The notes beneath the pieces were generated by a model. It was not told the DNA's origin. It saw only the letters and a program-made list of their open reading frames with translations, and did no database searches. Position numbers and translations under genes: made by a program. A DNA stretch of 51,390 bases from contig JAZDHP010000009.1 in assembly GCA_043805855.1 (NCBI GenBank), positions 1 through 51,390 on the forward strand, in the 5' to 3' direction. Below, one piece after another: positions 179-11,348 of this stretch. This DNA is from Candidatus Micrarchaeota archaeon (GTDB taxonomy: Archaea; Micrarchaeota; Micrarchaeia; Norongarragalinales; UBA8480). Position 1 is the first letter of the stretch; each line of letters begins with the position of its first letter.

Positions 179-1696
179 ATGAATAGGAAGAAAATGTCAC
201 TAGTTTCGTTTGAAGAAATATCTGGGTGCAGTAACGTATTCCCATGGGCCTACGCTTGGAAAGGCTGGATAGTTGGACAAAAACGCTATATTCCTCGTAC
301 GTTTTCCATCGGGAGATTACTTAGCGTCAACGGAGACTTAAAATTCGTACAAGAAGAAAAGGAAGGCATTGAAGTTTCAAAAGGAGTAATTGAAAAAGCT
401 CGAAAACGAGAATTTGTAGAATTAATACGTAGAGACACAGCAGTTACTATGCGTGACACGGCGCAGTTTATAAAAAATGAACTAGAACAAGACCTTTCAA
501 AAAAAACAAATGCCGAGCTCAGCGAAATTTACATGAAAGCCAATGAGCTCATTACTGAGTTGTACGCCGCAAGCGCAGTTCCATCAGTTATGGACATGTA
601 CCACACGCTGTTCTCTGAAATGTTGTTAAACTACGTAAAGAAAAGGTGCGTGGAAGTTGGAATTTCTGAAGATAAAGCTGGCGAAGTGTTCGCGGCGTTG
701 ACCACCGTTGAGCGCAAAACATTGCCACAATTGCAAGAAGAGGAATTTTTCAAACTGCTAAGTGAAATACAAAATAGCGAAAAATGGCAAGTACTATTAA
801 ACATGGGCAAATGGAAAGAAGATAAGACCCTAGCGAGTAAAATAAACACACTTTCGGAAAAGTACGGTTGGCTTTCCCGCGGTTATGAAGGCAAAGTTAC
901 TTGGACGCCTGAATACTTTGCAAATTTACTTGCAAGCGAATTGAAAAACAAGGGAGATGCGCTTGAAGAGCTGCGTGGCTTGGAAAAAATGCGGCGCGAT
1001 TTATTGGAAAATCAAAAGAAATACGAAGCGAAGCTAGCGATGAACGCAGAGTACAAGCAGTTCTTTTACGCAGCACGCGAGTTTACGATTATAAAAAGCG
1101 ACCGTAAGTTTGAAACGCTGAAGCTATACTGGAAGCTTGACCCGTTGATTCAAGAAATTGCAAAGCGATTTCAAATAACCGAAAAACAGTGTCGTTACAT
1201 TTTGCCAGATGAAATGTCTAGCGTATTGAAAAGCGGAAAAGTTGATGTTAATTTGTTAAACGAACGCAGGAAACTCTCGTGTTTAATTGTAACTGAAAAA
1301 GAAATAAAAACATTGACTGGCGAAGAAGCTAAGAAAATTTACGACATAGTTAACATTACTAAACTTGACAAAAATGAAGTTACTGGACACTGTGCGTGTC
1401 CCGGCAAGGCAAAGGGAATTGCAAGAATTGTAAATACAACTCAGGACATGGCAAAAATGCAACAAGGCGATATTCTCGTTGCACACTCGACGAACCCAGA
1501 GTTAGTTCCAGCGATGAAACTCGCAAGCGCCATAGTTGCAGAGGAAGGCGGGATTACTTCACACGCGGCAATCGTTAGCAGAGAGTTAGGCGTGCCTTGC
1601 GTTATTGGAACTAAAATTGCAACGAAGGTATTTCAAGATGGGGATTTAATAGAAGTTGACGCGAATAAAGGAATAGCCCGCAAAGTTAAAAGTTGA
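179..1696 (+). CDS. PEP-utilizing enzyme mobile (phospho-His swivel) domain protein without ATP-grasp domain
   Basis: C-terminal ~100 aa has GDILVAHSTNPELVPAM...GGITSHAAIVSRELGVPCVIG; N-terminal ~390 aa is helical with no GGKG ATP-grasp motif. Confidence 0.85.
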   Translation: MNRKKMSLVSFEEISGCSNVFPWAYAWKGWIVGQKRYIPRTFSIGRLLSVNGDLKFVQEEKEGIEVSKGVIEKARKREFVELIRRDTAVTMRDTAQFIKNELEQDLSKKTNAELSEIYMKANELITELYAASAVPSVMDMYHTLFSEMLLNYVKKRCVEVGISEDKAGEVFAALTTVERKTLPQLQEEEFFKLLSEIQNSEKWQVLLNMGKWKEDKTLASKINTLSEKYGWLSRGYEGKVTWTPEYFANLLASELKNKGDALEELRGLEKMRRDLLENQKKYEAKLAMNAEYKQFFYAAREFTIIKSDRKFETLKLYWKLDPLIQEIAKRFQITEKQCRYILPDEMSSVLKSGKVDVNLLNERRKLSCLIVTEKEIKTLTGEEAKKIYDIVNITKLDKNEVTGHCACPGKAKGIARIVNTTQDMAKMQQGDILVAHSTNPELVPAMKLASAIVAEEGGITSHAAIVSRELGVPCVIGTKIATKVFQDGDLIEVDANKGIARKVKS

Positions 1697-1710
1697 AAAA
1701 TTGGAAAAAA

Positions 1711-2268
1711 TTAGATAAGTGTCTTTACATCTTCCCACAGTTCTGGAAATTCTTCGTCCCAAAAGTGTCCTCGTTTAGCAAACAAGCGCATCTTTGCGCC
1801 GACTTTTTGCGCGATTTCCTCGCCGTTTGCAGGTTTAACGTATGGGTCGTCGTCTGAGTTGTAAATGAAAAACCTACCTGCATTGTTTTTGATTTTTTCC
1901 CAATTCCACTTTGGAAAAATAAAACTATTAACCAGTGGAGCGAATTCTTCCAAATGTAAATCCGACGCGAACCCGGCAATTATAAACGCGGCTTTTACTT
2001 TTACGTGCGATTTTTCTAAAATCCTCAATACGAAAGGCGCGCCTATACTGCGGCCAATAAGCACAGTGTCCGGCGTTAGTTTTGCAAAATACGGTTGGAA
2101 TACTTGCATCCAGTTTTCAAGCGTTTGACCTTCTGGCGTTGGGAAACGTGGCGCTATCACTTCATGCCCTTTTGCTTCGAGTTTTTCCCGCAACCATGGA
2201 AAAAACGTTTCGTTTGGGTCGCCGCCAGTGCAGTGGATTAAAATAAAACGCATTTTTTTATCTTTCAC
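1711..2268 (-). CDS. RBBP9/YdeN-family alpha/beta hydrolase
   Basis: 185 aa; GRSIG nucleophile elbow, SDDDPYV, GHF catalytic His. Confidence 0.85.
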   Translation of the reverse strand: MKDKKMRFILIHCTGGDPNETFFPWLREKLEAKGHEVIAPRFPTPEGQTLENWMQVFQPYFAKLTPDTVLIGRSIGAPFVLRILEKSHVKVKAAFIIAGFASDLHLEEFAPLVNSFIFPKWNWEKIKNNAGRFFIYNSDDDPYVKPANGEEIAQKVGAKMRLFAKRGHFWDEEFPELWEDVKTLI

Positions 2269-2280
2269 CTAACTTTCTAC

Positions 2281-3477
2281 CTAATACCTAAGGAAAGCGC
2301 CTATTCCCTTGAACGAAGCGTGGAATTGCCTACCTTCGTCGGTTTCATCTGAAATATATTCAACTATAACACCTTGCTGTTCAGCGTTTTCAATAATGTC
2401 AGTAATACGCAAACGGCAGAGGCCAACTTTACGGTGAGAACCGCACTCGCATGGCTCTGTTTCTCTTTTTTCTTCAATTGTCTTTGAAACTGTTTTACCA
2501 CAAGATGGACACTTGTACTCGCAGTCGAACATTTCCATTCCTTCAGTTATTAAAATTTTCGAAGCGCGTTTTACGTCAAGTGCTTGTTGCGTCTTTTCTA
2601 AACCGTAAACGGCTAGCCCCTCGCGGGCAACTAGCGAAATAAATTCGCTTACTAATTTCTTTTCTTTAACTGCTTCCTGTTCTTTTAATAAATCTGCAGA
2701 TTTTTCCATCAACTCTTTTAAACCTTGTTCATCTGCATAGCCCGTATCTACAACTCCAAGAATCTTGAGCTGGTAATTGAAAAATTTAGCCTTTGTAAAA
2801 TCTTCTTTAACAGGCCCTGGTCCGCCAATTATTACTCCTTGTAAGTTTTTTATTTCCATAAAAACATCCATTGCTTCGCCAGCACGCTGGTAGTACTTTT
2901 CAACTGTTTCCTCGTGAATTCGCTGGAAACGAGCTGCAGATTGCCCACCTTTGTGCACTTTTTGCATTGCAGTGCTGTGCAACGTGCGTAAAACTTTTAC
3001 CATTTTGCCTTTCAATATTGCAATTGTAGCATCTTTGCCATCAAGCACAACAAGCCCATAGGTGCCAGTATGTTCAAGCATGTCTTCCATTGGCTCGAGC
3101 ACGAACTTAGATTCACAGCGGTAAAACTGCGTTGCAAGTGGGTAAGGTGGTTCAACGAAAAATAACTGTACATCAACTTGGCCCTCGTATTGTGAAATGT
3201 TACCGCAGAAAATCGCAATTCCCATTTCTGGAGTTTTCTTGAAAGTCTTTAGAAACGCCATTATTTTTTCCAACGCGGCTTGTACGTTTTTCTGAGTTGA
3301 CTTGCTCTTAATGTTAGACGCTTGACTGTACTCGTCGCGCAGTTTTGCAGCAATGTCAGAAATCGGATAGCCCGGCGTAATGTAAACTGTTATTAGTTCA
3401 GTTCCACGACCCTGGTATTCCTTAAGCTGACTAATGTGCTTCTTGAACTCGAATAATTGTTTAGATTCGGTTGACAT
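2281..3477 (-). CDS. prf1: Peptide chain release factor aRF1
   Basis: ASNIKS, YRCESKF, GGQSAARF, C-terminal GIGAFLRY; CxxC Zn ribbon in domain 3. Confidence 0.97.
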   Translation of the reverse strand: MSTESKQLFEFKKHISQLKEYQGRGTELITVYITPGYPISDIAAKLRDEYSQASNIKSKSTQKNVQAALEKIMAFLKTFKKTPEMGIAIFCGNISQYEGQVDVQLFFVEPPYPLATQFYRCESKFVLEPMEDMLEHTGTYGLVVLDGKDATIAILKGKMVKVLRTLHSTAMQKVHKGGQSAARFQRIHEETVEKYYQRAGEAMDVFMEIKNLQGVIIGGPGPVKEDFTKAKFFNYQLKILGVVDTGYADEQGLKELMEKSADLLKEQEAVKEKKLVSEFISLVAREGLAVYGLEKTQQALDVKRASKILITEGMEMFDCEYKCPSCGKTVSKTIEEKRETEPCECGSHRKVGLCRLRITDIIENAEQQGVIVEYISDETDEGRQFHASFKGIGAFLRY

Positions 3478-3551
3478 TTTTAATTCACTTATTTGACATA
3501 CTTAACAATGTAATTGTTAGCTCCGCTGAAGTTCAAAGACCTTTCGAACAG

Positions 3552-4838
3552 CTAAGATTTCTGAGGTACAAGCTCTTTCTTCCCATTCATGTACTTTTGC
3601 AACGCAGTTGGAATTTTAATTGAACCGTCTGGCTTTTGGAAGTTTTCCATAACCGCGACAATTGCCCGGTTTGTAGCAACCATTGTGCTGTTCAGCGTGT
3701 GAACTGGTTCTTTTTCTTCGCTTCCCTTGCTAGTTCGATAGCGAATGCCAAGACGATTTGCTTGATACGCCGTACAGTTTGAACACGATGCAACTTCACG
3801 ATAAGCGCCTTGCGCTGGCATCCATGCTTCGACGTCGTATTTCTTCGCCGCAACAATTCCAATATCTCCCGTACATACATTAACAACACGAAACGGAATC
3901 TTCAAAAGTTTGAAAAAGCCTTCGCAGTTTTTAATTAGTTCTTCATGAATTTTCCACGATTCTTCTGGTCGTGAGAAAACAACTTGTTCAATCTTATTAA
4001 ACTGATGAACACGGAAAATGCCTTTTGTATCTTTACCATGTGCTCCCGCTTCTTTGCGGAAGTTATTGCTTATTCCAGCGTATTTCAACGGAAGTTGCTC
4101 TGGTTCGAAGATTTCACCACTGTGCATTGCGGTCAACGGATGCTCACTCGTTGCAATTAAGTAGAGATCTTCGTTTTCAATTTTGTACATGACGTTTTCA
4201 AAATCCGCAAGGTCAGTAACTCCCTCGTATGGCTTGCGATGCATCATGTACGGGGGCAAAACTGGAATAAACCCCTTTTTCACCAGAATATCCATCGCCA
4301 TGCGCTGCAACGCCATGTCAAGGAGAACAAAATCTCCCTTTAAGAAGAAAAACCTCGCGCCGCTTATCTTAGCAGCGCGTTCTAAATCCTGGCCGTGCAT
4401 TTCCAAAAGGTCAACGTGGCTCCTAAATTGCTTCGCCTTTGGAATTACTCTAACTTTGCGAACAACTTTGTTTTCACTATCGTCCCTCCCAAATGGAACG
4501 CTTTCGTGCAAAACGTTCGGCAAACGCATTAAATAATAGTCAACTTTTTCCTTCACTAAGTTCATCTTTTCCTCAGTTTCTTTTATCTTCTGCGGAATTT
4601 CCTTAGCTTCCTTGAATAACGATGCCGCGTCTTTACCGGCCTTCTTCGCCTCGCCGATGTCAGTTGAAATTTTGTTACGCCGGCTGCGTAGTTTTTCAGC
4701 TTCGAGCAAAAGCTCACGGTATTCTTTATCTTTTAAAATTAAGTCACTTAGCCAAGATAGTTTTTCCTTGTCCCCGCGCTTTTCTAAATCTTTCTTTACG
4801 ATTTCGGGATTTTTTCGAATAATTTTAACATCTAACAT
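3552..4838 (-). CDS. serS: Seryl-tRNA synthetase
   Basis: N-terminal coiled coil, LIATSEHPL, FRKEAG, GIFRVHQF, SCSNCTAYQ, HTLNST. Confidence 0.97.
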   Translation of the reverse strand: MLDVKIIRKNPEIVKKDLEKRGDKEKLSWLSDLILKDKEYRELLLEAEKLRSRRNKISTDIGEAKKAGKDAASLFKEAKEIPQKIKETEEKMNLVKEKVDYYLMRLPNVLHESVPFGRDDSENKVVRKVRVIPKAKQFRSHVDLLEMHGQDLERAAKISGARFFFLKGDFVLLDMALQRMAMDILVKKGFIPVLPPYMMHRKPYEGVTDLADFENVMYKIENEDLYLIATSEHPLTAMHSGEIFEPEQLPLKYAGISNNFRKEAGAHGKDTKGIFRVHQFNKIEQVVFSRPEESWKIHEELIKNCEGFFKLLKIPFRVVNVCTGDIGIVAAKKYDVEAWMPAQGAYREVASCSNCTAYQANRLGIRYRTSKGSEEKEPVHTLNSTMVATNRAIVAVMENFQKPDGSIKIPTALQKYMNGKKELVPQKS

Positions 4839-4869
4839 ACAACATCACGCTTCGTTACATTGTTTATTT

Positions 4870-5490
4870 TTATTTCGCACAGCGGAGCATTTCACTCCTC
4901 GCGTGCTCTAGCTGTCCACGCAGTACATCTTGCTTGCGCTTTAGATTGCCAACAAGCGACGCTGAGTATTTCAACAGCATCATCTCGTCGTAAATGTTAT
5001 TCATGCACTGGAAGTAATACTCCGCGTCGTTATACTTACCTTCCTTCAACGCTAATTGCAACGCACGGCGCACTTCGCCAGAACAATCTAGGAAGCCGCC
5101 TAAGTAAGAAGAAACCGTAATGTCAAGATCTTCCGGCGTCGGGATATCTTTCTTTTCAACAACCGCACAGAAAATCATTATCTCAGCGTATTCTTGCATT
5201 GGCGTGTCAAGAATATGAGGAAATTTTTCGCCAACTTTTTTCAATTCAACTAGCTTCTTCGCCATGCCAGTCATTAGCTCTTTTGCCTCTTTTGGATTTT
5301 CAGTATGCAAATGACGAATTGCTTTAGCGCAGTCACGGATGAATTCACGCGATAGCGACAACACTTTATCTTGGTTCTTTTCCTTCTCGTCGAGTTCCTT
5401 CGCGAGCGCAGCAACTACTTTTCCAAGTACCTTTGTAATTTTAGTATCTTTCATAAACATCTCCCTTCTTGCGTTTTTTGGTATATACAT
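4870..5490 (-). CDS. Translin/Trax (C3PO)-family RNase; true start may be a downstream Met
   Basis: QEYAE and YLGGFLDCSGEVRR match archaeal translin catalytic motifs; LKRKQDVLR C-terminus. Confidence 0.8.
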   Translation of the reverse strand: MYIPKNARREMFMKDTKITKVLGKVVAALAKELDEKEKNQDKVLSLSREFIRDCAKAIRHLHTENPKEAKELMTGMAKKLVELKKVGEKFPHILDTPMQEYAEIMIFCAVVEKKDIPTPEDLDITVSSYLGGFLDCSGEVRRALQLALKEGKYNDAEYYFQCMNNIYDEMMLLKYSASLVGNLKRKQDVLRGQLEHARSEMLRCAK

Positions 5491-5555
5491 ATAAATCCCC
5501 GCGTTGAAAAACTTGTGGGTAAGCCCATAAATTATAATTATAGAAGGGATAGAAC

Positions 5556-7109
5556 TTGAAAGCAGAGCAGATAATTAAAAAATACTCCTTAGATAAAAGC
5601 TCGTGGACAAACAAGGGTTTTCATGGCGTCCTTCACTACATGTACCCCGTAGCATACATGCCGTTTAAACCAATGAAAGCCGCTTATGGCGATTGGCATC
5701 ACATTCTAATGGTGTTTTTCAAAGACAATTACGGCAACTGGTATTGGAATGACAATGACATGGTTCGACTTCGCAAGGAGCTCATTGTTAACGTTTCAAA
5801 AGATGAACAGTTTTTACAAAAATTAATGGAAAAATGGCAAGCACTGGTAAAAAAATATCAAAAGAAAATAGACAAAATAGAAAGGACTGATCTTTCAAAA
5901 CTTTCTGCGCAAGATTTCAACGCCCTTTACCAAGATTTCTTCGATGCATACGTAATGCAGTATGGAATCGCCATTGGCGTGCAAGATCCATTTAGCATGC
6001 ATGCCCAAAACTTCCTAGAACCTGCGTTCAAAAAATTTATCGCTCAAAAAGGTAAAACTAATCAATTTAACGAACTTTACGCTGAGCTTCTTGCGCCAAT
6101 TTTACCGTCATTTGTAAACGAAGAGAAGAAAACCCTGCTAGAAATTCTAGCGAAAATTCAAGCTAATAATTTACATTTACTAATAATCTTGCGCGGCTTT
6201 GACTACGCCGCCGCACATCTTGACGAAATGCCTGAAATTGAAAAGATGCTAGAAAAACATGCAAGAGAATTTTATTGGGTTCAGAACAATTATGCAAAAG
6301 TCAAATGCCTTGATAAGCTATATTTCTTAAACGAACTTTGCACTTTACAAAAAGCAGGCGTAAACGGCACCGAGGCAAAAAAAGAAATTGAACAGCACCT
6401 TGAAAATTCTATAAAATTAAAGGCAAAACTCATAAAGCAACTACAAGTGCCAAAAGAGTTGCTTGATTTAATCAAAATTTCAGAGATATTCACCTACATG
6501 CAAGATGAAAGAAAGAAAAATGTGTTAATTGCAAATCATTATCAACGAAAGTTTATCGACGAGGCAAGTCGACGAACTGGAATAAGCCCCGCATTACTTG
6601 AATATACGATACTTCCTGAACTAAAAGAAATTGTCAAAACTGGCGAAGCTAATTTGAAAGTTCTTGCAGCACGCCGTAAAAGTTGCCTAATTATTCACAC
6701 GAGAGAAGGACATGAAATTTTTGATGGAGAAGAAACACTCGCACTATATGCTACCCTATTTGGTAAATCTGCCAAGGCAATTGCAGAAGTAACAGGAAGC
6801 TGCGCTTCAGAAGGAAAAGCAACTGGCCTGGCAAAAATTGTTCTAAAAACTCACGATATGATTAACATGCAGGAAGGCGACGTACTAATAACAAGCATGA
6901 CTAGACCTGAAATGGTTCCTGTAATGAAAAAAGCAGTTGCGATTATTACTGACGAAGGTGGCGTAACGTCACATGCAGCAATTGTAAGTCGAGAATTAGG
7001 CATTCCCTGCATTGTAGGCGCAAAGCACGCTACAAGAGTTTTCAAAGACGGTGACTTGGTGGAAGTTGACGCTGGCAAAGGAACTGCAAGGAAAATAGGA
7101 GAAAAATAA
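5556..7109 (+). CDS. Second PEP-utilizing mobile-domain protein without ATP-grasp domain (paralog of 179..1696)
   Basis: MTRPEMVPVM...DEGGVTSHAAIVSRELGIPCIVG at the C-terminus; same size and architecture; TTG start. Confidence 0.85.
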   Translation: MKAEQIIKKYSLDKSSWTNKGFHGVLHYMYPVAYMPFKPMKAAYGDWHHILMVFFKDNYGNWYWNDNDMVRLRKELIVNVSKDEQFLQKLMEKWQALVKKYQKKIDKIERTDLSKLSAQDFNALYQDFFDAYVMQYGIAIGVQDPFSMHAQNFLEPAFKKFIAQKGKTNQFNELYAELLAPILPSFVNEEKKTLLEILAKIQANNLHLLIILRGFDYAAAHLDEMPEIEKMLEKHAREFYWVQNNYAKVKCLDKLYFLNELCTLQKAGVNGTEAKKEIEQHLENSIKLKAKLIKQLQVPKELLDLIKISEIFTYMQDERKKNVLIANHYQRKFIDEASRRTGISPALLEYTILPELKEIVKTGEANLKVLAARRKSCLIIHTREGHEIFDGEETLALYATLFGKSAKAIAEVTGSCASEGKATGLAKIVLKTHDMINMQEGDVLITSMTRPEMVPVMKKAVAIITDEGGVTSHAAIVSRELGIPCIVGAKHATRVFKDGDLVEVDAGKGTARKIGEK

Positions 7110-7128
7110 TAAAAGGTGAATTGAATAA

Positions 7129-7797
7129 ATGAAAGTAGTTTCTCTTGGTGGTTCGCTGTTGTTCGGCGATAACAACGAGTTTGACGTCAGTTTTTTGAAA
7201 AACATCGCGGCGCTATTTGCAAAGCACAAAGATATTGCAATTGTTGTTGGCGGTGGAAAAATAGCACGGAGCTACGTTTCACTCGCACGTGAGTTTAAAG
7301 TCAACGAATTTAACTGCGATTCAATTGCGATAAAAGCAACTCACGTAAACGCTGCACTTGTAGCTGCGATTATACCAAACGCAATTTATTGTAATAACTT
7401 AGACGAAGCCACCGCGGCGGTAGATAACAGAAAAATTCCAGTTCTCGGCGGGCAACTGCCAGGCGTTACAACCGACGCAATTTCAGTGCTCCTTGCAGAA
7501 AAACTAGACGCAAAAACGCTGTTAAATTTAAGCAACGTTAGTTACGTTTATTCAGCTGACCCGAATGTTGACAAAAGCGCGAAGAAAATTGAAAAAATGT
7601 CCCACCCTGCGTTAACGAAACTCGCGAGTGAAAACGACACGAGAATGGCACGGACGAACTTTCCCTTTGACCTCGTCGCGTGTAAACTAGCACAACGGAG
7701 TAACATTGAATTACGGTTTGTAGATGGGAAAAACGTAAAAGAAGTTGAAAACGCGTTGAACGACAAACCGTTTAGTGGGACAATTGTGAAAAATTAA
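7129..7797 (+). CDS. pyrH: UMP kinase
   Basis: SLGGS, VVGGGKIAR, PGVTTDA, YSADP, FPFDLVA; upstream AGGTGA SD. Confidence 0.93.
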   Translation: MKVVSLGGSLLFGDNNEFDVSFLKNIAALFAKHKDIAIVVGGGKIARSYVSLAREFKVNEFNCDSIAIKATHVNAALVAAIIPNAIYCNNLDEATAAVDNRKIPVLGGQLPGVTTDAISVLLAEKLDAKTLLNLSNVSYVYSADPNVDKSAKKIEKMSHPALTKLASENDTRMARTNFPFDLVACKLAQRSNIELRFVDGKNVKEVENALNDKPFSGTIVKN

Positions 7798-7825
7798 CAG
7801 AAGAAATTTTTACATTTTCATCTTT

Positions 7826-10321
7826 TTACTTTCTTAACAATTTCCTTTGCTCTGCACTGGCAATTACACGGCGCGTTTTTTCAATCACGTCGGGATTAAC
7901 TGAAATTGAATCAATTCCATATTCAACTAATTTTTCAGTAAACTCAGGATAAACAGAAGGTGCTTGGCCGCAAATTGACACTTTTACGTCATACTGATGG
8001 CATGTTTTGATAACCTTTTCAATGCTACGCAGTACTGCTTCGTCGCGCTCGTCGAACTCCTCAGCAACAATTGAATTATCACGATCAACTCCGAGCGTTA
8101 GCTGCGTTAAATCGTTTGAGCCAATTGAGAAGAAGTCAGCGCCTGCTTTGCAAAACTCTTCTGCAAGAATTACGTTGGATGGAACTTCGCACATTATTCC
8201 AAGTTTAAAGTCGCGCGTTTGGTGTAACCCAGCTGCTTCAACTAATTTCTTTACAAGTTTAAACTCGTGCACTGTACGCACAACTGGAATCATTAAATGT
8301 AAGTTTTTCATTCCGTACTTTTCCCGCACTTTTTTAATCGCAGCTAATTCCATTGCAAATTCAGCTGGGTCTTTAATGTAACGGAAGCAACCACGGTATC
8401 CAATCATTGGATTCTCTTCATGCGGTTCAAATTCAGTTCCGCCTTCTAAGTTACGGTATTCGTTTGTCTTGAAGTCAGTCGCGCGGTAAATAACTGGACG
8501 GTTTCCAAACGGCGCGCACGCTTTGCGAAGTGCCTTAGCAAGGCTGTCAATAAACTCCTGCTCGCGACCTTGCTTAATGAATAAACGCGGGTGCTTACCC
8601 ATCGCAGCGACGATGAACTCCGCACGGAGTAAACCAACTCCATCCACGTCTCGCAGCGCGACTCCCTCTGCCAAATCAGGCTGAGCTAAGTTAACGTAAA
8701 GCTTAGTACCAGTAATGATGTGCGCGTTTACACTTGCAATAAGTGCAACTTGCTTGGTTGCCGTGGGATCAGTAAGGGCCGCGCCGGGGGCCCTTGCGTA
8801 AACCATACCATGGTCAGCGTCGACAGTTACAATTTCACCATCGTGTAAATTGCGCGTAGCACTTCCAGAACCAACAATACACGGTACGCCGAGTTCTCGC
8901 GAGACAATTGCAGCGTGGGCAGTTGTTCCACCTTCGTCAGTTACAATCGCGCATGCGCGTTTCATCGCTGGGACAAAGTCCGGCGTAGTCATTGTTGTTA
9001 CAAGCACGTCGCCTTTTTTCACTTTGTATAATTCCTTCAAGTCAAGTATTAATCGAACTGGGCCGCTTGCAACTCCGGGAGAAGCGGATAAACCTTGCAC
9101 AATCGCTTCTTCGCTTTCGTTTGCGTTTTGTTCTGGCATTACAGTCACCTCTTGTTTCCTTTCAATAAATTTTTCTTCTTGCACTTCTTTTTGTTCTTCA
9201 ACCTTTTCGTCAGCGTTTTCTTCAGTTTCTTTTTCTTCTTCAGCTGGTGTAAATTGTTCTTGTGAAACTTGCGCTGGTTGCATTTGCAACTGTGGCTCCT
9301 GCTGTTGAACGTGTTGCTTGTGTTTTTCCAACGTTGTAATCGCGCGGGTTTGCACGATGTAAACTTCGCCGTTTTCAACTCCCCACTCTATATCCTGCGG
9401 GCGGCCATAATGCTCTTCAAGTTGCTTAGCATAGCGAGCGAGTTGTAAAACAATTGCATCAGGAACTTTCTGCACTTCTTGCAACTCTTCTTCAACATCA
9501 ACCCACTGGTCAGCTCCTTTTACTTTTGTAATCATGCGCGTCTGTTTGCTTAAACGCTTTTCAGAAAGTTGCATCGACGCTTTGTCAATAACATAGTGAT
9601 CTGGCGTAATTGAACCACTTACAACTGCTTCGCCGAGGCCGAAACCGCCTTCGACGACGATTTTACTCCGGTCGCCTGTGAACGGTTCAGCGGTGAACAT
9701 AACTCCACTTATTTCACTTTGGCACATTTTCTGCACAACAGCAGCAAGTCCAACTTTCATGTGGTCAAACCCCTGCTCTACGCGGTAGTACATTGCCCTT
9801 GCGCCGAAAAGCGAAGCCCAGCACTTTTTCACCGCAGCTACAACCGCGTCGCCTCCCTTTATGTTAAGAAAGCTCTCTTGCTGGCCTGCGAAACTCGCCT
9901 CAGGTAGATCTTCAGCAGTTGCACTAGAGCGTATAGCGACGTAAATTTCTTGCGAGTCAGTTGGAATTAAATCAACCCCGCACAAGTGATTGTAACTTTT
10001 TATAATATCCGCGCGAATATCCTGCGGGATCTCGCCGTTCAAAATCGCCTCTTTGACAATCTGACTCGCTTTGTCAAGCGAAACATTATCATAAACATCT
10101 AACAAACTGCAATTCTGGCGAATTATCTCGTCAATTCCATTGTGCTTGATGAATTCAAAATAAGCGTAGCTCGAAACAACGAAACCCGGCGGAACTGGAA
10201 AATTGTTATTTATCATTTCTGCAAGGTTAGCACCTTTGCCGCCAGCAGCAGCTAAACTATCCCGCGACAACTCTTTGAACCAATAAATATTCTTCTGGTT
10301 AACCATTTTAAAAATTACCAT
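7826..10321 (-). CDS. ppsA: Phosphoenolpyruvate synthase with long Q/E-rich interdomain linker
   Basis: GGKGANL, RSSATAEDL, SFAGQQE, GGTTAHAAIVSRELG, GLLRAEF, SIGSNDLTQ, CGQAPS. Confidence 0.96.
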   Translation of the reverse strand: MVIFKMVNQKNIYWFKELSRDSLAAAGGKGANLAEMINNNFPVPPGFVVSSYAYFEFIKHNGIDEIIRQNCSLLDVYDNVSLDKASQIVKEAILNGEIPQDIRADIIKSYNHLCGVDLIPTDSQEIYVAIRSSATAEDLPEASFAGQQESFLNIKGGDAVVAAVKKCWASLFGARAMYYRVEQGFDHMKVGLAAVVQKMCQSEISGVMFTAEPFTGDRSKIVVEGGFGLGEAVVSGSITPDHYVIDKASMQLSEKRLSKQTRMITKVKGADQWVDVEEELQEVQKVPDAIVLQLARYAKQLEEHYGRPQDIEWGVENGEVYIVQTRAITTLEKHKQHVQQQEPQLQMQPAQVSQEQFTPAEEEKETEENADEKVEEQKEVQEEKFIERKQEVTVMPEQNANESEEAIVQGLSASPGVASGPVRLILDLKELYKVKKGDVLVTTMTTPDFVPAMKRACAIVTDEGGTTAHAAIVSRELGVPCIVGSGSATRNLHDGEIVTVDADHGMVYARAPGAALTDPTATKQVALIASVNAHIITGTKLYVNLAQPDLAEGVALRDVDGVGLLRAEFIVAAMGKHPRLFIKQGREQEFIDSLAKALRKACAPFGNRPVIYRATDFKTNEYRNLEGGTEFEPHEENPMIGYRGCFRYIKDPAEFAMELAAIKKVREKYGMKNLHLMIPVVRTVHEFKLVKKLVEAAGLHQTRDFKLGIMCEVPSNVILAEEFCKAGADFFSIGSNDLTQLTLGVDRDNSIVAEEFDERDEAVLRSIEKVIKTCHQYDVKVSICGQAPSVYPEFTEKLVEYGIDSISVNPDVIEKTRRVIASAEQRKLLRK

Positions 10322-10361: not shown

Positions 10362-11348
10362 ATGAAACCATCAAATGAACAACTTGCAGCAGCAAAGGCC
10401 TATTTTGAAAAAGTAGGCATGAAACGCTATGGCTGGCTAACGCTGCCACTACAAATAAAATTACACGAAGCTGTTCAAGCGAAAACATTAACGGATAAAG
10501 ATGTAATTGAACTAGGCCGACATTTAGCTTCCAGCGACTATTCCAAAACTATATCACCAAGGCTTGAAACAGTGCGAAACGCTGGCTTAACCGACGGGCG
10601 GGAAATAATCGACGTTTTACTTGGGAAAAAAACAGTCGACGATAAAGAATTAACTGCACTGGTCAACGCGGTTAAGGATAAAGTTGCATTTTCAATCCAC
10701 GCCCATGGATTTCACGAATGGAACATAAAAGGCCAGTACCATACAGATTATCCCTACGAGCACGCCCAGAGAAATTTAAGACCGCAATACTTTAGCACTG
10801 AACACGATTCAAAGTTAATCACAATTCACCCTACAATGAGACGATATATTGCGGAGATGGCGGATTCCACAACGCTGTTACACCACGGAGTAATCCCGCG
10901 GGGTCGCTTTGAACACACTTATACCGATCATGAAAAAGCATCAAGGCAAGTTAAAGTTCCTCAAACTTGGTGGGATAAACTCCGAGGACAGCAAAGAACC
11001 GAAGAAGTAATAGAGTATAGACCAGTAACTAAAAAATCTACAGTCATTGTACCGGGCTTACACGAAGTTACCACGTTAACTGATAAACCCGCCAACATTC
11101 ACGTATTGATGTACGCGTTTCCACATGCAGGTAGCGACGACAGCACTAGACGCGCAAATGCCCCCCAGTGTTACATGTTAACAGATGGCCCGACTTATAA
11201 GAAAATAACCGCGTTTATTAAACGCCGTCCCGAAAAAACACACGCACTTTTCGAACGATTAGCCGGCGACTTCCCCCGCAAAGCCGACATCTTCCAACCT
11301 AAAAAAGCTCCACTTCGCGTGGAAGAAGTAAACTTCGGAATAAGATAA
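10362..11348 (+). CDS. Hypothetical protein
   Basis: 328-aa ORF filling the gap between ppsA and rpl10e; AT-rich promoter-like region upstream; no motif recognised. Confidence 0.65.
   Translation: MKPSNEQLAAAKAYFEKVGMKRYGWLTLPLQIKLHEAVQAKTLTDKDVIELGRHLASSDYSKTISPRLETVRNAGLTDGREIIDVLLGKKTVDDKELTALVNAVKDKVAFSIHAHGFHEWNIKGQYHTDYPYEHAQRNLRPQYFSTEHDSKLITIHPTMRRYIAEMADSTTLLHHGVIPRGRFEHTYTDHEKASRQVKVPQTWWDKLRGQQRTEEVIEYRPVTKKSTVIVPGLHEVTTLTDKPANIHVLMYAFPHAGSDDSTRRANAPQCYMLTDGPTYKKITAFIKRRPEKTHALFERLAGDFPRKADIFQPKKAPLRVEEVNFGIR

What the first reader, a model, noticed from the sequence alone, without database searches (positions are those of the whole stretch)
179..10321. Orphan phospho-His swivel proteins clustered with PEP synthase: candidate trans-acting phosphorelay
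Seen: two ~510-aa paralogs (179..1696, 5556..7109) keep an intact TSHAAIVSRELG phospho-His domain but have no ATP-grasp and no pyruvate/PEP barrel. Their N-terminal ~390 aa are strongly diverged from each other, and both lie within 10 kb of ppsA. Known: rifampin phosphotransferase-type enzymes combine ATP-grasp, substrate domain and His domain in one chain. Inference: these proteins cannot autophosphorylate, so they may be charged in trans by PpsA and then phosphorylate different substrates through variable N-terminal domains, forming a hub-and-satellite kinase system.
Basis: partly seen in the sequence, partly recalled or inferred. Interest (0 to 1): 0.85.

Follow-up and report, generated by a model that had tools for sequence, protein, structure and literature searches.

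The report
Split dikinase subunits, seventeen paralogues
The two genes encode the substrate-binding plus phospho-histidine half of a split kinase related to rifampin phosphotransferase; this 1-Mb archaeal genome has 17 such halves and one separate ATP-binding half, which is a likelier charger than PEP synthase.

Summary
The sequence facts hold. ORFs 179..1696 (505 aa) and 5556..7109 (517 aa) carry only a C-terminal PEP-utilizers swivel domain with an intact TSHAAIVSRELG His motif, and a complete ppsA lies at 7826..10321. The N-terminal ~400 aa are not novel: both models match the rifampin-binding domain plus swivel of rifampin phosphotransferase (RPH) and no nucleotide-binding fold. This is the HpeH/CreH/PpsA-type half of known two-component dikinases (PMC12167813). 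The two genes are 2 of 17 such paralogues, 2.3% of the genome. The genome also has one stand-alone ATP-grasp gene on another contig, in the order HTH_10 regulator, satellite, ATP-grasp, HAD. That ATP-grasp type tracks satellite-rich relatives (10 of 17 against 1 of 134). It is fused or adjacent to a satellite in all 10 closest loci examined. Linkage to ppsA is near chance (P=0.05) and absent in a congener. Trans-charging is therefore supported, but the likely hub is the dedicated ATP-grasp, not PpsA. PpsA is not excluded, because several satellite-rich relatives show no dedicated ATP-grasp. Substrates are unknown.

The parts
179..1696 (+). Satellite 1 (P0001, 505 aa): RPH-type substrate-binding domain plus C-terminal phospho-His swivel domain, with no ATP-grasp.
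   Evidence: ORF and translation. Pfam finds PF00391 only. AF2 model pLDDT 94. Foldseek best match is RPH 5fbt, E 3e-14. VIA gives 5hv1_A Z 19.0, rmsd 5.0, 436 aligned, model 2-504 against chain 324-867.
179..1360 (+). N-terminal, mostly helical domain of satellite 1 (about residues 1-394), the presumed substrate-binding and second phosphotransfer site.
   Evidence: Profile A1 aligns positions 101-501 to RPH 447-865, E 1.3e-27. K306, R309, E326 and R330 are conserved in 67-68 of 68 family members. K306 falls in the column of RPH Arg666. The domain boundary is approximate.
1460..1672 (+). Swivel (PEP-utilizers mobile) domain of satellite 1. The catalytic His462 codon is at 1562-1564.
   Evidence: PF00391 covers residues 428-498. 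H462 is invariant in 68 of 68 family members and 17 of 17 own paralogues.
5556..7109 (+). Satellite 2 (P0002, 517 aa, TTG start), with the same two-domain architecture.
   Evidence: AF2 model pLDDT 89.7. Foldseek best matches are RPH entries, E 2e-12 to 1e-10. Identity to P0001 is 39% over 284 columns. It has Q at the K306-equivalent column, the only exception among the 68 sequences.
6870..7082 (+). Swivel domain of satellite 2. The catalytic His473 codon is at 6972-6974.
   Evidence: PF00391 covers residues 439-509. H473 is invariant in alignment A3.
7826..10321 (-). ppsA, a complete PEP synthase (831 aa). It is a neighbour and a possible but unproven alternative phosphoryl donor, and it is not shown to belong to the system.
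   Evidence: PPDK_N 25-341, PEP-utilizers 435-505 and PEP-utilizers_C 537-824. NF005057 scores 932 bits against a cut-off of 598. It is the only PEP-utilizers_C in the genome.
7129..7797 (+). pyrH (archaeal UMP kinase), 20 bp downstream of satellite 2 on the same strand. It is listed only as context.
   Evidence: TIGR02076 scores 186 bits against a cut-off of 158. The adjacency to a satellite is not conserved in congener G002.

Best explanation
P0001 and P0002 are specificity subunits of a split, RPH-type ATP-dependent dikinase (ATP + substrate + H2O -> AMP + Pi + phospho-substrate). Each chain has an RPH-like substrate-binding domain and a C-terminal swivel domain carrying the catalytic His. 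They are 2 of 17 diverged paralogues in this ~1-Mb, probably Micrarchaeota-type, DPANN genome.

Inferred mechanism, by analogy with HpeHI, PpsAB and RPH: a separate ATP-grasp protein binds ATP. The swivel His attacks the beta-phosphate, the gamma-phosphate is released as Pi, and the swivel domain returns to its own N-domain and passes the phosphate to a bound, probably small-molecule, acceptor. The most likely ATP-grasp partner is the single 318-aa stand-alone protein P0123 (G000:C23:2814-3770, outside the window). It would then serve many satellites in a one-hub, many-spokes arrangement.

Shown here: architecture, fold, paralogue number, the existence of the stand-alone ATP-grasp, its gene order, its fusions and its co-occurrence with satellites. 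Inferred: the physical pairing of P0001 and P0002 with P0123, the chemistry, and that the paralogues take different substrates. The substrates are unknown.
For: (1) Architecture. Pfam finds only PF00391 at the C-terminus, and the His motif is intact in 17 of 17 paralogues.

(2) Fold. RPH is the only whole-length structural match: Foldseek E 3e-14 for P0001 and 2e-12 for P0002, and VIA Z 19.0 with 436 residues aligned to RPH 324-867. Profile-to-sequence E is 1.3e-27 against RPH 447-865. A conserved basic residue, K306, sits in the column of RPH Arg666, which is essential for the second phosphotransfer.

(3) Precedent. In HpeHI, HpeH is the RIF-binding-like plus swivel component and HpeI is the ATP-grasp component, and mutating the His abolishes activity (PMC12167813).

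(4) A partner gene exists. The genome has two PPDK_N domains, one in PpsA and one in a 318-aa ATP-grasp-only ORF. The latter is 41% identical to the PpsA N-domain and lies downstream of a satellite on C23.

(5) Gene order. In 9 of 11 verified stand-alone ATP-grasp genes of the order, at least one satellite lies on the same strand within about 3 kb. The other two sit on contigs of 2.5 and 3.8 kb.

(6) Fusions. I examined the 10 closest ATP-grasp loci of the 80 kept in species-representative genomes (nine bacterial records, mostly CPR by title, and one archaeon). Seven are fused to a satellite in one ORF of 667-1311 aa and three are adjacent to one.

(7) Co-occurrence. In the phylum sample of 151 genomes, this ATP-grasp type (at least 435 bits, against at most 407 for PpsA N-domains) occurs in 10 of 17 genomes with at least 3 swivel matches. 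It occurs in 1 of 134 with 2 or fewer. Relatives are not independent, so no P value is leaned on. In the order sample the figures are 11 of 21 against 0 of 20, with 3 and 1 ambiguous rows counted as no.

(8) Hub-like conservation. The listed ATP-grasp homologues outside the close relatives are 54-59% identical to P0123 and include named archaeal and CPR bacterial records. Satellites are only 26-38% identical to each other within this genome.

(9) Complex prediction of P0001 with P0123 gave weak support only. The score was 0.57 and the best of 3 controls 0.01. The mark was reached by 58 of 80 solved complexes and 2 of 110 mismatched pairs, but at 0.60 or under by only 7 of those 80 and by both mismatches that passed. 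The runs agree in at least 96% of contacts, and the partner pLDDT is at least 82. RPH is a solved single-chain relative, so the pass may reflect memory of that structure.
Against: (a) Many satellite-rich relatives show no dedicated ATP-grasp: 7 of 17 in the phylum sample and 7 of 21, plus 3 ambiguous, in the order sample. G028 (8 contigs, 90% complete, 17-19 swivel matches) has only the PpsA N-domain, even when searched with P0123 itself. This exceeds what ~10% incompleteness predicts (P about 0.001, or 0.013 without two genomes of a different type).

(b) In G000 only one of 17 satellites is next to the ATP-grasp. P0001 and P0002 are on another contig, so their pairing with it is inferred.

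(c) The swivel domains are PpsA-like. The TSH motif keeps the Thr that HpeH and RPH replace, and P0002's swivel is 55% identical over 96 aa to a congener's PpsA. Cross-talk with PpsA is therefore plausible.

(d) The complex score is weak.

(e) RPH Glu667 has no conserved counterpart, and P0002 has Gln at the K306 column.

(f) There are no expression data and no substrate clue. The neighbours of the satellites are mixed housekeeping genes.
Confidence: 0.66

Rival explanations
1. One reading: PpsA is the hub. Its ATP-grasp domain, or its phospho-His or PEP-binding domain, charges the satellites in trans, linking them to central carbon and energy status.
For: The satellites' swivel domains are very PpsA-like, with an identical TSHAAIVSRELG core and 55% identity of P0002's swivel to a congener's PpsA. 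P0123 itself is PpsA-like, 41% identical to the PpsA N-domain, so the docking surfaces may be similar. Five to seven satellite-bearing relatives, including G028, have PpsA as their only detected ATP-grasp. Two satellites lie within 6.1 kb of ppsA here.
Against: Most satellite-poor relatives also carry a PpsA-type PPDK_N match, so PpsA does not predict satellites. The linkage is near chance (P=0.052) and convergent, and P0002's position is not conserved in congener G002. In the satellite-rich relatives G024, G028, G032, G036 and G040, none of the listed satellite matches lies near ppsA (104 matches were not listed). All gene-order and fusion signals point to the dedicated ATP-grasp. PpsA carries its own tethered swivel, which would compete for the site. 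Two CPR genomes with fused forms had no PEP-utilizers_C match, though their completeness is not given.
Confidence: 0.14
2. The satellites act without any ATP-grasp partner, as phosphotransferases that move phosphate between a phosphorylated donor metabolite and an acceptor through the swivel His.
For: HpeH alone catalysed phosphotransfer from 4-phosphoacetophenone to acetovanillone (PMC12167813 abstract). This would explain satellite-rich genomes with no dedicated ATP-grasp.
Against: The co-occurrence, adjacency and fusion with the ATP-grasp are strong. Exchange activity in HpeH is a partial reaction of the dikinase cycle and is not known as a physiological role.
Confidence: 0.08
3. The satellites are regulatory phospho-carriers or protein-directed His kinases rather than small-molecule kinases, comparable to the PPDK-derived VadK.
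For: VadK is a truncated PPDK relative that autophosphorylates on His and binds metabolic enzymes (PMC13400623, passages). HTH_10 regulators lie next to three satellites.
Against: VadK keeps the ATP-grasp and lacks an RPH-type domain, which is the opposite truncation. The satellites keep a full RPH-type substrate domain, with conserved basic residues at the RPH phosphate site.
Confidence: 0.06
4. The satellites are decaying remnants of once-fused RPH-like genes and have no current function.
For: One copy is cut by a contig end (C39). Two copies are short, at 351 and 352 aa.
Against: The reading frames are intact and the catalytic His is kept in 17 of 17 copies. P0001 has homologues at 49-54% identity over at least 97% of its length in six other assemblies. 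More than 4,000 homologues were found. The models have high confidence.
Confidence: 0.02

Closest known systems
Two-component small-molecule dikinases HpeHI, CreHI and phenylphosphate synthase PpsAB (PMC12167813; CreHI and PpsAB only as cited there)
   Same: One chain carries an RPH-type substrate domain and a C-terminal swivel His, and a separate ~320-340-aa ATP-grasp chain supplies ATP. The components are encoded next to each other in at least one operon. Structural neighbours of the N-domain include actinobacterial 'PEP-utilizing protein mobile subunit' clusters carrying PF27448 Rph_4th, with TM 0.67.
   Different: The known systems were described as pairs. Here there are 17 acceptor subunits and one ATP-grasp gene, and up to 29 swivel matches in a relative. 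The hosts are ultra-small archaea and CPR bacteria, not aromatic-degrading bacteria. No sequence similarity to the PRK08296 models was detected outside the swivel region. The Thr before the His is kept (T-S/C-H), where HpeH and RPH have Met. The satellites are ~450-530 aa, against 71 kDa for HpeH. The substrates are unknown.
Rifampin phosphotransferase RPH (PDB 5FBS, 5FBT, 5HV1; PMC4844700)
   Same: It is the best and only whole-length structural match for both satellites, covering the RIF-binding domain and the swivel. Fused ATP-grasp-satellite proteins of 810-836 aa in CPR genomes repeat the RPH domain order. A basic residue is conserved at the Arg666 column.
   Different: There is no ATP-grasp in the chain. 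Identity is only 14-18%. NCBIfam RPH models score far below their cut-offs, 73 bits against 999. Glu667 is not conserved. Nothing indicates that rifamycins are the substrate.
PEP synthase PpsA (pyruvate, water dikinase)
   Same: The swivel domain and the stand-alone ATP-grasp are closest in sequence to PEP synthase. NF005057 is the top NCBIfam hit for both, and the His motif is identical to that of PpsA.
   Different: The satellites lack the PEP/pyruvate TIM-barrel (PEP-utilizers_C) and the ATP-grasp. The swivel is C-terminal rather than central.
PTS Enzyme I / HPr / Enzyme II phosphorelay
   Same: The logic is the same: one upstream phosphoryl donor feeds many substrate-specific modules through phospho-His, and the swivel domain is homologous to that of Enzyme I.
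   Different: The donor would be ATP through an ATP-grasp, not PEP. There is no HPr or EII and no transport component. The resemblance is an analogy, not membership.
VadK (Rv1127c), a truncated PPDK-derived His kinase (PMC13400623, passages only)
   Same: It is another natural truncation of the dikinase architecture that keeps the swivel His.
   Different: VadK keeps the ATP-grasp and autophosphorylates. The satellites keep the substrate domain and lack the ATP-grasp.

Membership tests
RPH-type two-component dikinase, substrate-binding/swivel component (HpeH/CreH/PpsA-alpha type) | C-terminal swivel (PEP-utilizers mobile) domain with the catalytic His in a GGxxxH loop within about 50 residues of the C-terminus | tested here: met
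   PF00391 at 428-498 of 505 and 439-509 of 517. GGITSH and GGVTSH are present. The His is invariant in 68 of 68 family members and 17 of 17 own paralogues.
RPH-type two-component dikinase, substrate-binding/swivel component (HpeH/CreH/PpsA-alpha type) | N-terminal domain with the fold of the RPH rifampin-binding domain | tested here: met
   VIA gives 5hv1_A Z 19.0, rmsd 5.0, 436 aligned, model 2-504 against chain 324-867. Foldseek E is 3e-14 for P0001 and 2e-12 for P0002. The profile hit to RPH 447-865 has E 1.3e-27.
RPH-type two-component dikinase, substrate-binding/swivel component (HpeH/CreH/PpsA-alpha type) | No ATP-grasp in the chain, and a separate ATP-grasp component encoded in the genome | tested here: met
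   The satellites have no PPDK_N. A 318-aa PPDK_N-only ORF lies on C23, next to one satellite. That it pairs with P0001 and P0002 specifically is inferred. The complex prediction gave weak support only: score 0.57, best control 0.01.
RPH-type two-component dikinase, substrate-binding/swivel component (HpeH/CreH/PpsA-alpha type) | Phosphate-site residues of the second active site (RPH Arg666, Glu667, Lys670) | tested here: inconclusive
   K306 falls in the Arg666 column and R309 lies next to the Lys670 column; each is conserved in 67 of 68 sequences. The Glu667 column is not conserved, and P0002 has Q at position 306. This rests on an HMM alignment, not on a superposed active site.
RPH-type two-component dikinase, substrate-binding/swivel component (HpeH/CreH/PpsA-alpha type) | ATP- and partner-dependent phosphorylation of a small-molecule hydroxyl, abolished by mutating the His | not testable with these tools
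   This needs biochemistry.
PEP synthase / PPDK (three-domain dikinases) | PPDK_N ATP-grasp, central swivel and C-terminal PEP-utilizers_C barrel in one chain | tested here: not met
   P0001 and P0002 have only the swivel. They score 126-133 bits on NF005057 against a cut-off of 598. P0003 (ppsA) meets all three features.
Rifamycin-inactivating phosphotransferase (NCBIfam NF041857 / NF000283) | Full-length match above the curated cut-off, with single-chain ATP-grasp, RIF-binding domain and swivel | tested here: not met
   The scores are 71-73 bits against a cut-off of 999, and 48-49 bits against 1700. Only the C-terminal third of the model is matched.
PTS Enzyme I | Swivel domain with an HPr-binding subdomain and a PEP-binding C-terminal domain | tested here: not met
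   TIGR01417 scores 37-38 bits against a cut-off of 342, over the swivel only.

The most novel reading that the evidence does not exclude
Ultra-small DPANN archaea and CPR bacteria run an ATP-driven, PTS-like one-to-many phosphorelay. One highly conserved ATP-grasp hub charges up to about 28 interchangeable swivel-His specificity subunits. Where the hub is missing, as G028 appears to show, the ATP-grasp of PEP synthase does the charging. Several subunits sit under their own HTH_10 regulator. The subunits phosphorylate different scavenged or toxic small molecules, which would trap or neutralise them in cells that depend on a host. The family takes about 2-3% of a 1-Mb genome.
Probability: 0.3. 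Interest if true: 0.8.

Novelty: new variant of a known kind. Interest (0 to 1): 0.6.

Why it matters
Split RPH-type dikinases were so far described as one-to-one pairs in aromatic-degrading bacteria. Here the acceptor half has expanded to 17 copies, and to as many as 29 swivel matches in a relative, against a single ATP-binding half. This happens in genomes of about 1 Mb that have shed most metabolism, so the family must matter for the lifestyle of these organisms. Homologues number in the thousands in DPANN and CPR metagenomes and carry only generic names such as 'PEP-utilizing enzyme' and 'pyruvate, water dikinase'. Those names may lead metabolic reconstructions to count them as gluconeogenic PEP synthase. 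If one ATP-grasp really serves many specificity subunits, the system is a natural modular kinase platform. It would also offer a direct route to learning which metabolites these uncultured cells capture or detoxify. My six literature searches and two targeted paper look-ups found no description of this expansion. Supplementary gene-family tables of DPANN and CPR genome papers could not be seen and may list it.

Tried and rejected
A cryptic nucleotide-binding fold in the N-terminus. Foldseek against the PDB, for both models, and a Foldseek-independent VIA scan of 48,161 chains, for P0001, gave RPH as the only whole-length match. The remaining hits covered the swivel domain or were generic helical bundles with Z of 7.5 or less. 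The first ~70 residues are thinly covered by these rows, so a small extra motif there is not excluded.

An alternative donor inside the G028 satellite cluster. The two non-satellite ORFs there are an HTH_10 regulator and a 286-aa ORF with no Pfam hit. The latter shows no profile similarity to the ATP-grasp alignment (probability 0.2%) or to the satellite alignment (0.1%).

Functional clues from neighbours. Twenty ORFs flanking satellites in G000 were scanned. They gave HTH_10 (2), TrmB, nitroreductase, alpha/beta hydrolase, LMW phosphatase, NUDIX, ribulose-phosphate epimerase, NMT1-like, TruD, DsbA-like, Nre, an AAA ATPase, PGI, PRPP synthetase and DUF7479. Four had no hit. No common pathway emerged.

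Regulation by PSRP (DUF299), suggested by the retained Thr. No PF03618 match was found in G000, which is 92% complete.

Expression. No RNA holder was listed for 179-1696.

The single complex job went to the stand-alone ATP-grasp.

G013's 375-aa ATP-grasp ORF was first counted as stand-alone and then dropped. It runs into the contig end and scores like a PpsA N-domain (5e-68, against 1e-95 or better for the verified ones).

Supplementary files of the papers were not available. The figures S8-S16 cited in PMC12167813 were not seen.

Full report
WHAT IS IN THE WINDOW. The window is contig C9 of a 1,031,631-bp, 67-contig archaeal assembly that is 92% complete. Its genes include aRF1, archaeal-type pyrH and uL16/L10e. 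The closest named homologues of the proteins studied are from Candidatus Micrarchaeota MAGs. ORF 179..1696 (P0001, 505 aa) and ORF 5556..7109 (P0002, 517 aa, TTG start) each give a single Pfam hit, the PEP-utilizers mobile domain PF00391, at the extreme C-terminus. Both contain TSHAAIVSRELG. ORF 7826..10321 on the minus strand is a complete PEP synthase with PPDK_N, swivel and PEP-utilizers_C; it scores 932 bits on NF005057.

THE N-TERMINAL DOMAIN. An AlphaFold2 model of P0001, built on 68 homologues, has pLDDT 94. The model of P0002 has pLDDT 89.7. Both are mostly helical N-domains followed by the swivel. For both, Foldseek's best PDB matches are the Listeria rifampin phosphotransferase entries, at E 3e-14 and 2e-12. 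A scan of 48,161 representative chains that does not rely on Foldseek gives RPH 5hv1_A at Z 19.0, rmsd 5.0 and 436 residues. Model residues 2-504 align to chain residues 324-867, which is the rifampin-binding domain plus the swivel. All other strong rows cover only the swivel. The family profile also reaches RPH residues 447-865 by sequence, at E 1.3e-27. In that alignment the nearly invariant K306 falls in the column of RPH Arg666, and R309 lies next to Lys670. These residues bind the transferred phosphate, and Arg666Ala abolishes rifampin phosphorylation (PMC4844700, passages). Glu667 has no conserved counterpart, and P0002 has Gln at position 306. I found no sign of a nucleotide-binding fold in the N-domain.

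THE KNOWN KIND. A 2025 paper (PMC12167813; abstract and sections 8 and 10 read) characterises HpeHI. It groups HpeHI with CreHI and phenylphosphate synthase PpsAB as two-component small-molecule dikinases. HpeH corresponds to the RIF-binding and swivel domains of RPH and HpeI to the ATP-grasp domain. [quoted passage not shown] The conserved His is essential. HpeH alone can pass phosphate between a phospho-product and a substrate. P0001 and P0002 have the HpeH architecture. Atlas structural neighbours agree: they include actinobacterial 'PEP-utilizing protein mobile subunit' clusters carrying the Rph_4th family, at TM 0.67. One difference is that the satellites keep the Thr two residues before the His, as PEP synthase does, whereas HpeH and RPH have Met there. 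No PSRP regulator gene was found in the genome.

SEVENTEEN PARALOGUES AND ONE SEPARATE ATP-GRASP. The genome has 18 PF00391 matches, namely PpsA plus 17 satellites in open frames of 280-611 aa. All 17 keep the His. Together they make up 23.6 kb, or 2.3% of the assembly. Each satellite's listed best matches among the others are 26-43% identical over about 180-500 aa, with no full-length match above 38%. P0001 has homologues at 49-54% identity over at least 97% of its length in six other assemblies. The paralogues are therefore old. PPDK_N occurs twice in the genome, in PpsA and in a 318-aa ATP-grasp-only ORF on contig C23 (P0123, G000:C23:2814-3770). P0123 is 41% identical to the PpsA N-domain. 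The C23 gene order, all on one strand, is HTH_10 regulator, satellite, ATP-grasp, HAD-IA hydrolase.

GENE ORDER, FUSIONS AND CO-OCCURRENCE. In 41 genomes of the same order, swivel matches range from 0 to 29 per genome. Of 21 genomes with at least 3 matches, 11 have a verified ATP-grasp-only ORF of 317-347 aa, one of them cut by a contig end. Three more are ambiguous and seven have none. Of the 20 genomes with 2 or fewer matches, none has a verified one and one is ambiguous. In 9 of the 11 verified cases, one to four satellites lie on the same strand within about 3 kb. The other two sit on contigs of 2.5 and 3.8 kb. A HAD hydrolase follows the ATP-grasp in 4 of the 12 loci examined.

In a 151-genome sample of the phylum, scores against the stand-alone ATP-grasp profile fall into two groups. 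Ten matches score 435-522 bits, nine in frames of 306-366 aa and one in a frame of 678 aa. PpsA N-domains score at most 407 bits in frames of about 770-930 aa. The high-scoring type occurs in 10 of 17 genomes with at least 3 swivel matches and in 1 of 134 with fewer. Relatives are not independent, so these are descriptive counts.

Among species-representative genomes, I examined the 10 loci closest to P0123 out of the 80 kept. Nine are bacterial records, mostly named CPR lineages, and one is an archaeon; identity is 48-55%. Seven encode the ATP-grasp fused to a satellite in one ORF, of 836, 810, 1233, 816, 1311, 667 and 828 aa. Three have it adjacent to a satellite. One Buchananbacteria genome has six satellites and the ATP-grasp on one strand of one contig. 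The listed ATP-grasp homologues outside the close relatives are 54-59% identical to P0123 and include named archaeal and CPR bacterial records, far more than the satellites are to each other. That fits a hub constrained by many partners. A complex prediction of P0001 with P0123 gave weak support only: score 0.57 against a best control of 0.01. The tool's calibration warns that passes at or below 0.60 are weak, and the solved single-chain RPH may be remembered.

THE LINK TO ppsA. With 17 satellites in 1.03 Mb, two or more within 10 kb of ppsA are expected with P=0.052. P0002 and pyrH converge on ppsA, so they are not co-transcribed with it. In congener G002 the surrounding block is conserved, with 61-90% identity at the protein level. 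There pyrH abuts the translin-like gene with no satellite between them, and an AAA_17 ORF sits between ppsA and pyrH. In the satellite-rich relatives G024, G028, G032, G036 and G040, none of the listed satellite matches is near ppsA (104 matches were not listed). Most satellite-poor relatives also carry a PpsA-type PPDK_N match. The clustering that prompted the finding is therefore probably incidental.

WHAT REMAINS AGAINST MY READING. Seven of the 17 satellite-bearing genomes in the phylum sample lack the dedicated ATP-grasp. Two of them belong to a family with a different ATP-grasp-plus-swivel protein of about 650-700 aa. The other five (G028, G014, G179, G124, G126) have PpsA as their only ATP-grasp. 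G028 is the clearest case: 8 contigs, 90% complete and 17-19 swivel matches, five of them in one cluster. A direct search with P0123 found only its PpsA. Incompleteness of about 10% would rarely produce this many misses (P about 0.001-0.013). In some lineages, then, either the gene is systematically unassembled, or PpsA or another donor charges the satellites, or the satellites work as ATP-independent phosphotransferases. For P0001 and P0002 themselves, pairing with P0123 is inferred and not shown. My estimates are 0.66 for the dedicated ATP-grasp as main donor in this genome, 0.14 for PpsA and 0.08 for partner-free phosphotransfer. The remainder goes to regulatory or decayed roles.

FUNCTION. 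The chemistry I propose is inferred from RPH, HpeHI and PpsAB. The steps are pyrophosphoryl-His formation from ATP at the ATP-grasp, loss of the gamma-phosphate, swivel of the domain, and transfer to an acceptor in the N-domain. The acceptors are unknown. Three of the four HTH_10 regulator genes in the genome lie directly upstream of a satellite on the same strand, and the fourth is 1.8 kb from one. An HTH_10 gene also sits in the G028 cluster. This hints at substrate-responsive control, as in catabolic or detoxifying operons. Other neighbours are mixed. The HpeHI authors suggest that phosphorylation traps compounds that diffuse into the cell. For host-dependent cells with minimal metabolism that idea is attractive, but it is untested.

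NOVELTY AND LITERATURE. Split RPH-type dikinases are known, so the two genes are members of a known kind. The apparently undescribed feature is the many-to-one expansion in DPANN and CPR genomes. Six full-text searches found nothing on it. Term look-ups in a 2025 Micrarchaeota genomics paper and a 2026 preprint on archaeal protein duplication also found nothing. Apart from the three papers read above, all other papers were seen only as search listings.

VERDICT. I rate it a new variant of a known kind, interest 0.6.

Noticed in passing
G000:C23:1-570, C67:18907-19557, C59:8869-9525, C61:1-582 (outside the window); also L032:6641-7306 in G028: All four HTH_10 (PF04967) regulator genes over the cut-off in this genome lie beside satellites. 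Three are directly upstream on the same strand and one is 1.8 kb away. A fifth example sits inside the G028 satellite cluster. They may be dedicated regulators of the family.
   Followed up: partly
L014:2331-3005 (G000:C23), L022:6211-6804, L023:4340-4930, L027:3428-4051: A HAD-IA hydrolase gene directly follows the stand-alone ATP-grasp gene in 4 of the 12 loci examined. The G000 copy has a hydrophobic N-terminal ~90 aa. Its role beside a dikinase is unexplained.
   Followed up: partly
window 9092..9325 (-), PpsA residues ~333-410: The PpsA of this genome has an insert of about 80 aa, rich in Glu, Gln and Lys, between the ATP-grasp and the swivel. TIGR01418 matches the protein in two stretches.
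   Followed up: no
G010:C6:6027-8528; also G094:C3 and G051:C2: In some relatives the PpsA ATP-grasp match is split in two within one open frame of 1198-1324 aa. This may be an intein or another insertion in ppsA.
   Followed up: no
L053:384-4316 (1311 aa) and L051:5869-9567 (1233 aa): A CPR bacterium and an archaeon encode single ORFs with one ATP-grasp followed by two satellite-type modules or parts of them. This is a built-in one-to-two version of the hub-and-satellite idea.
   Followed up: partly
family f13 genomes of the phylum sample (e.g. G061:C1:398697-399575, G047:C2:57639-58499): A different class of open frames of about 616-713 aa gives weak ATP-grasp matches (80-180 bits), and these genomes have weaker swivel matches. 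The architecture may resemble VadK or a short PPDK.
   Followed up: no
window 10362..11348 (+): A 328-aa ORF between ppsA and the uL16 gene has no Pfam or NCBIfam hit. It had no BLASTP match among the ORFs of the syntenic G002 stretch.
   Followed up: no
L034:10863-11459 (G002): In the congener, an AAA_17 P-loop kinase-like ORF lies between ppsA and pyrH, and no satellite is present at the place where P0002 sits in this genome. This spot next to ppsA varies between close relatives.
   Followed up: partly
Satellite and ATP-grasp homologues are annotated 'PEP-utilizing enzyme', 'pyruvate, water dikinase' or 'phosphoenolpyruvate synthase' in public records. The ATP-grasp is 54-59% identical across the listed archaeal and CPR bacterial homologues. 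This suggests transfer between the two groups and a risk of mis-scoring gluconeogenesis in metabolic reconstructions.
   Followed up: no
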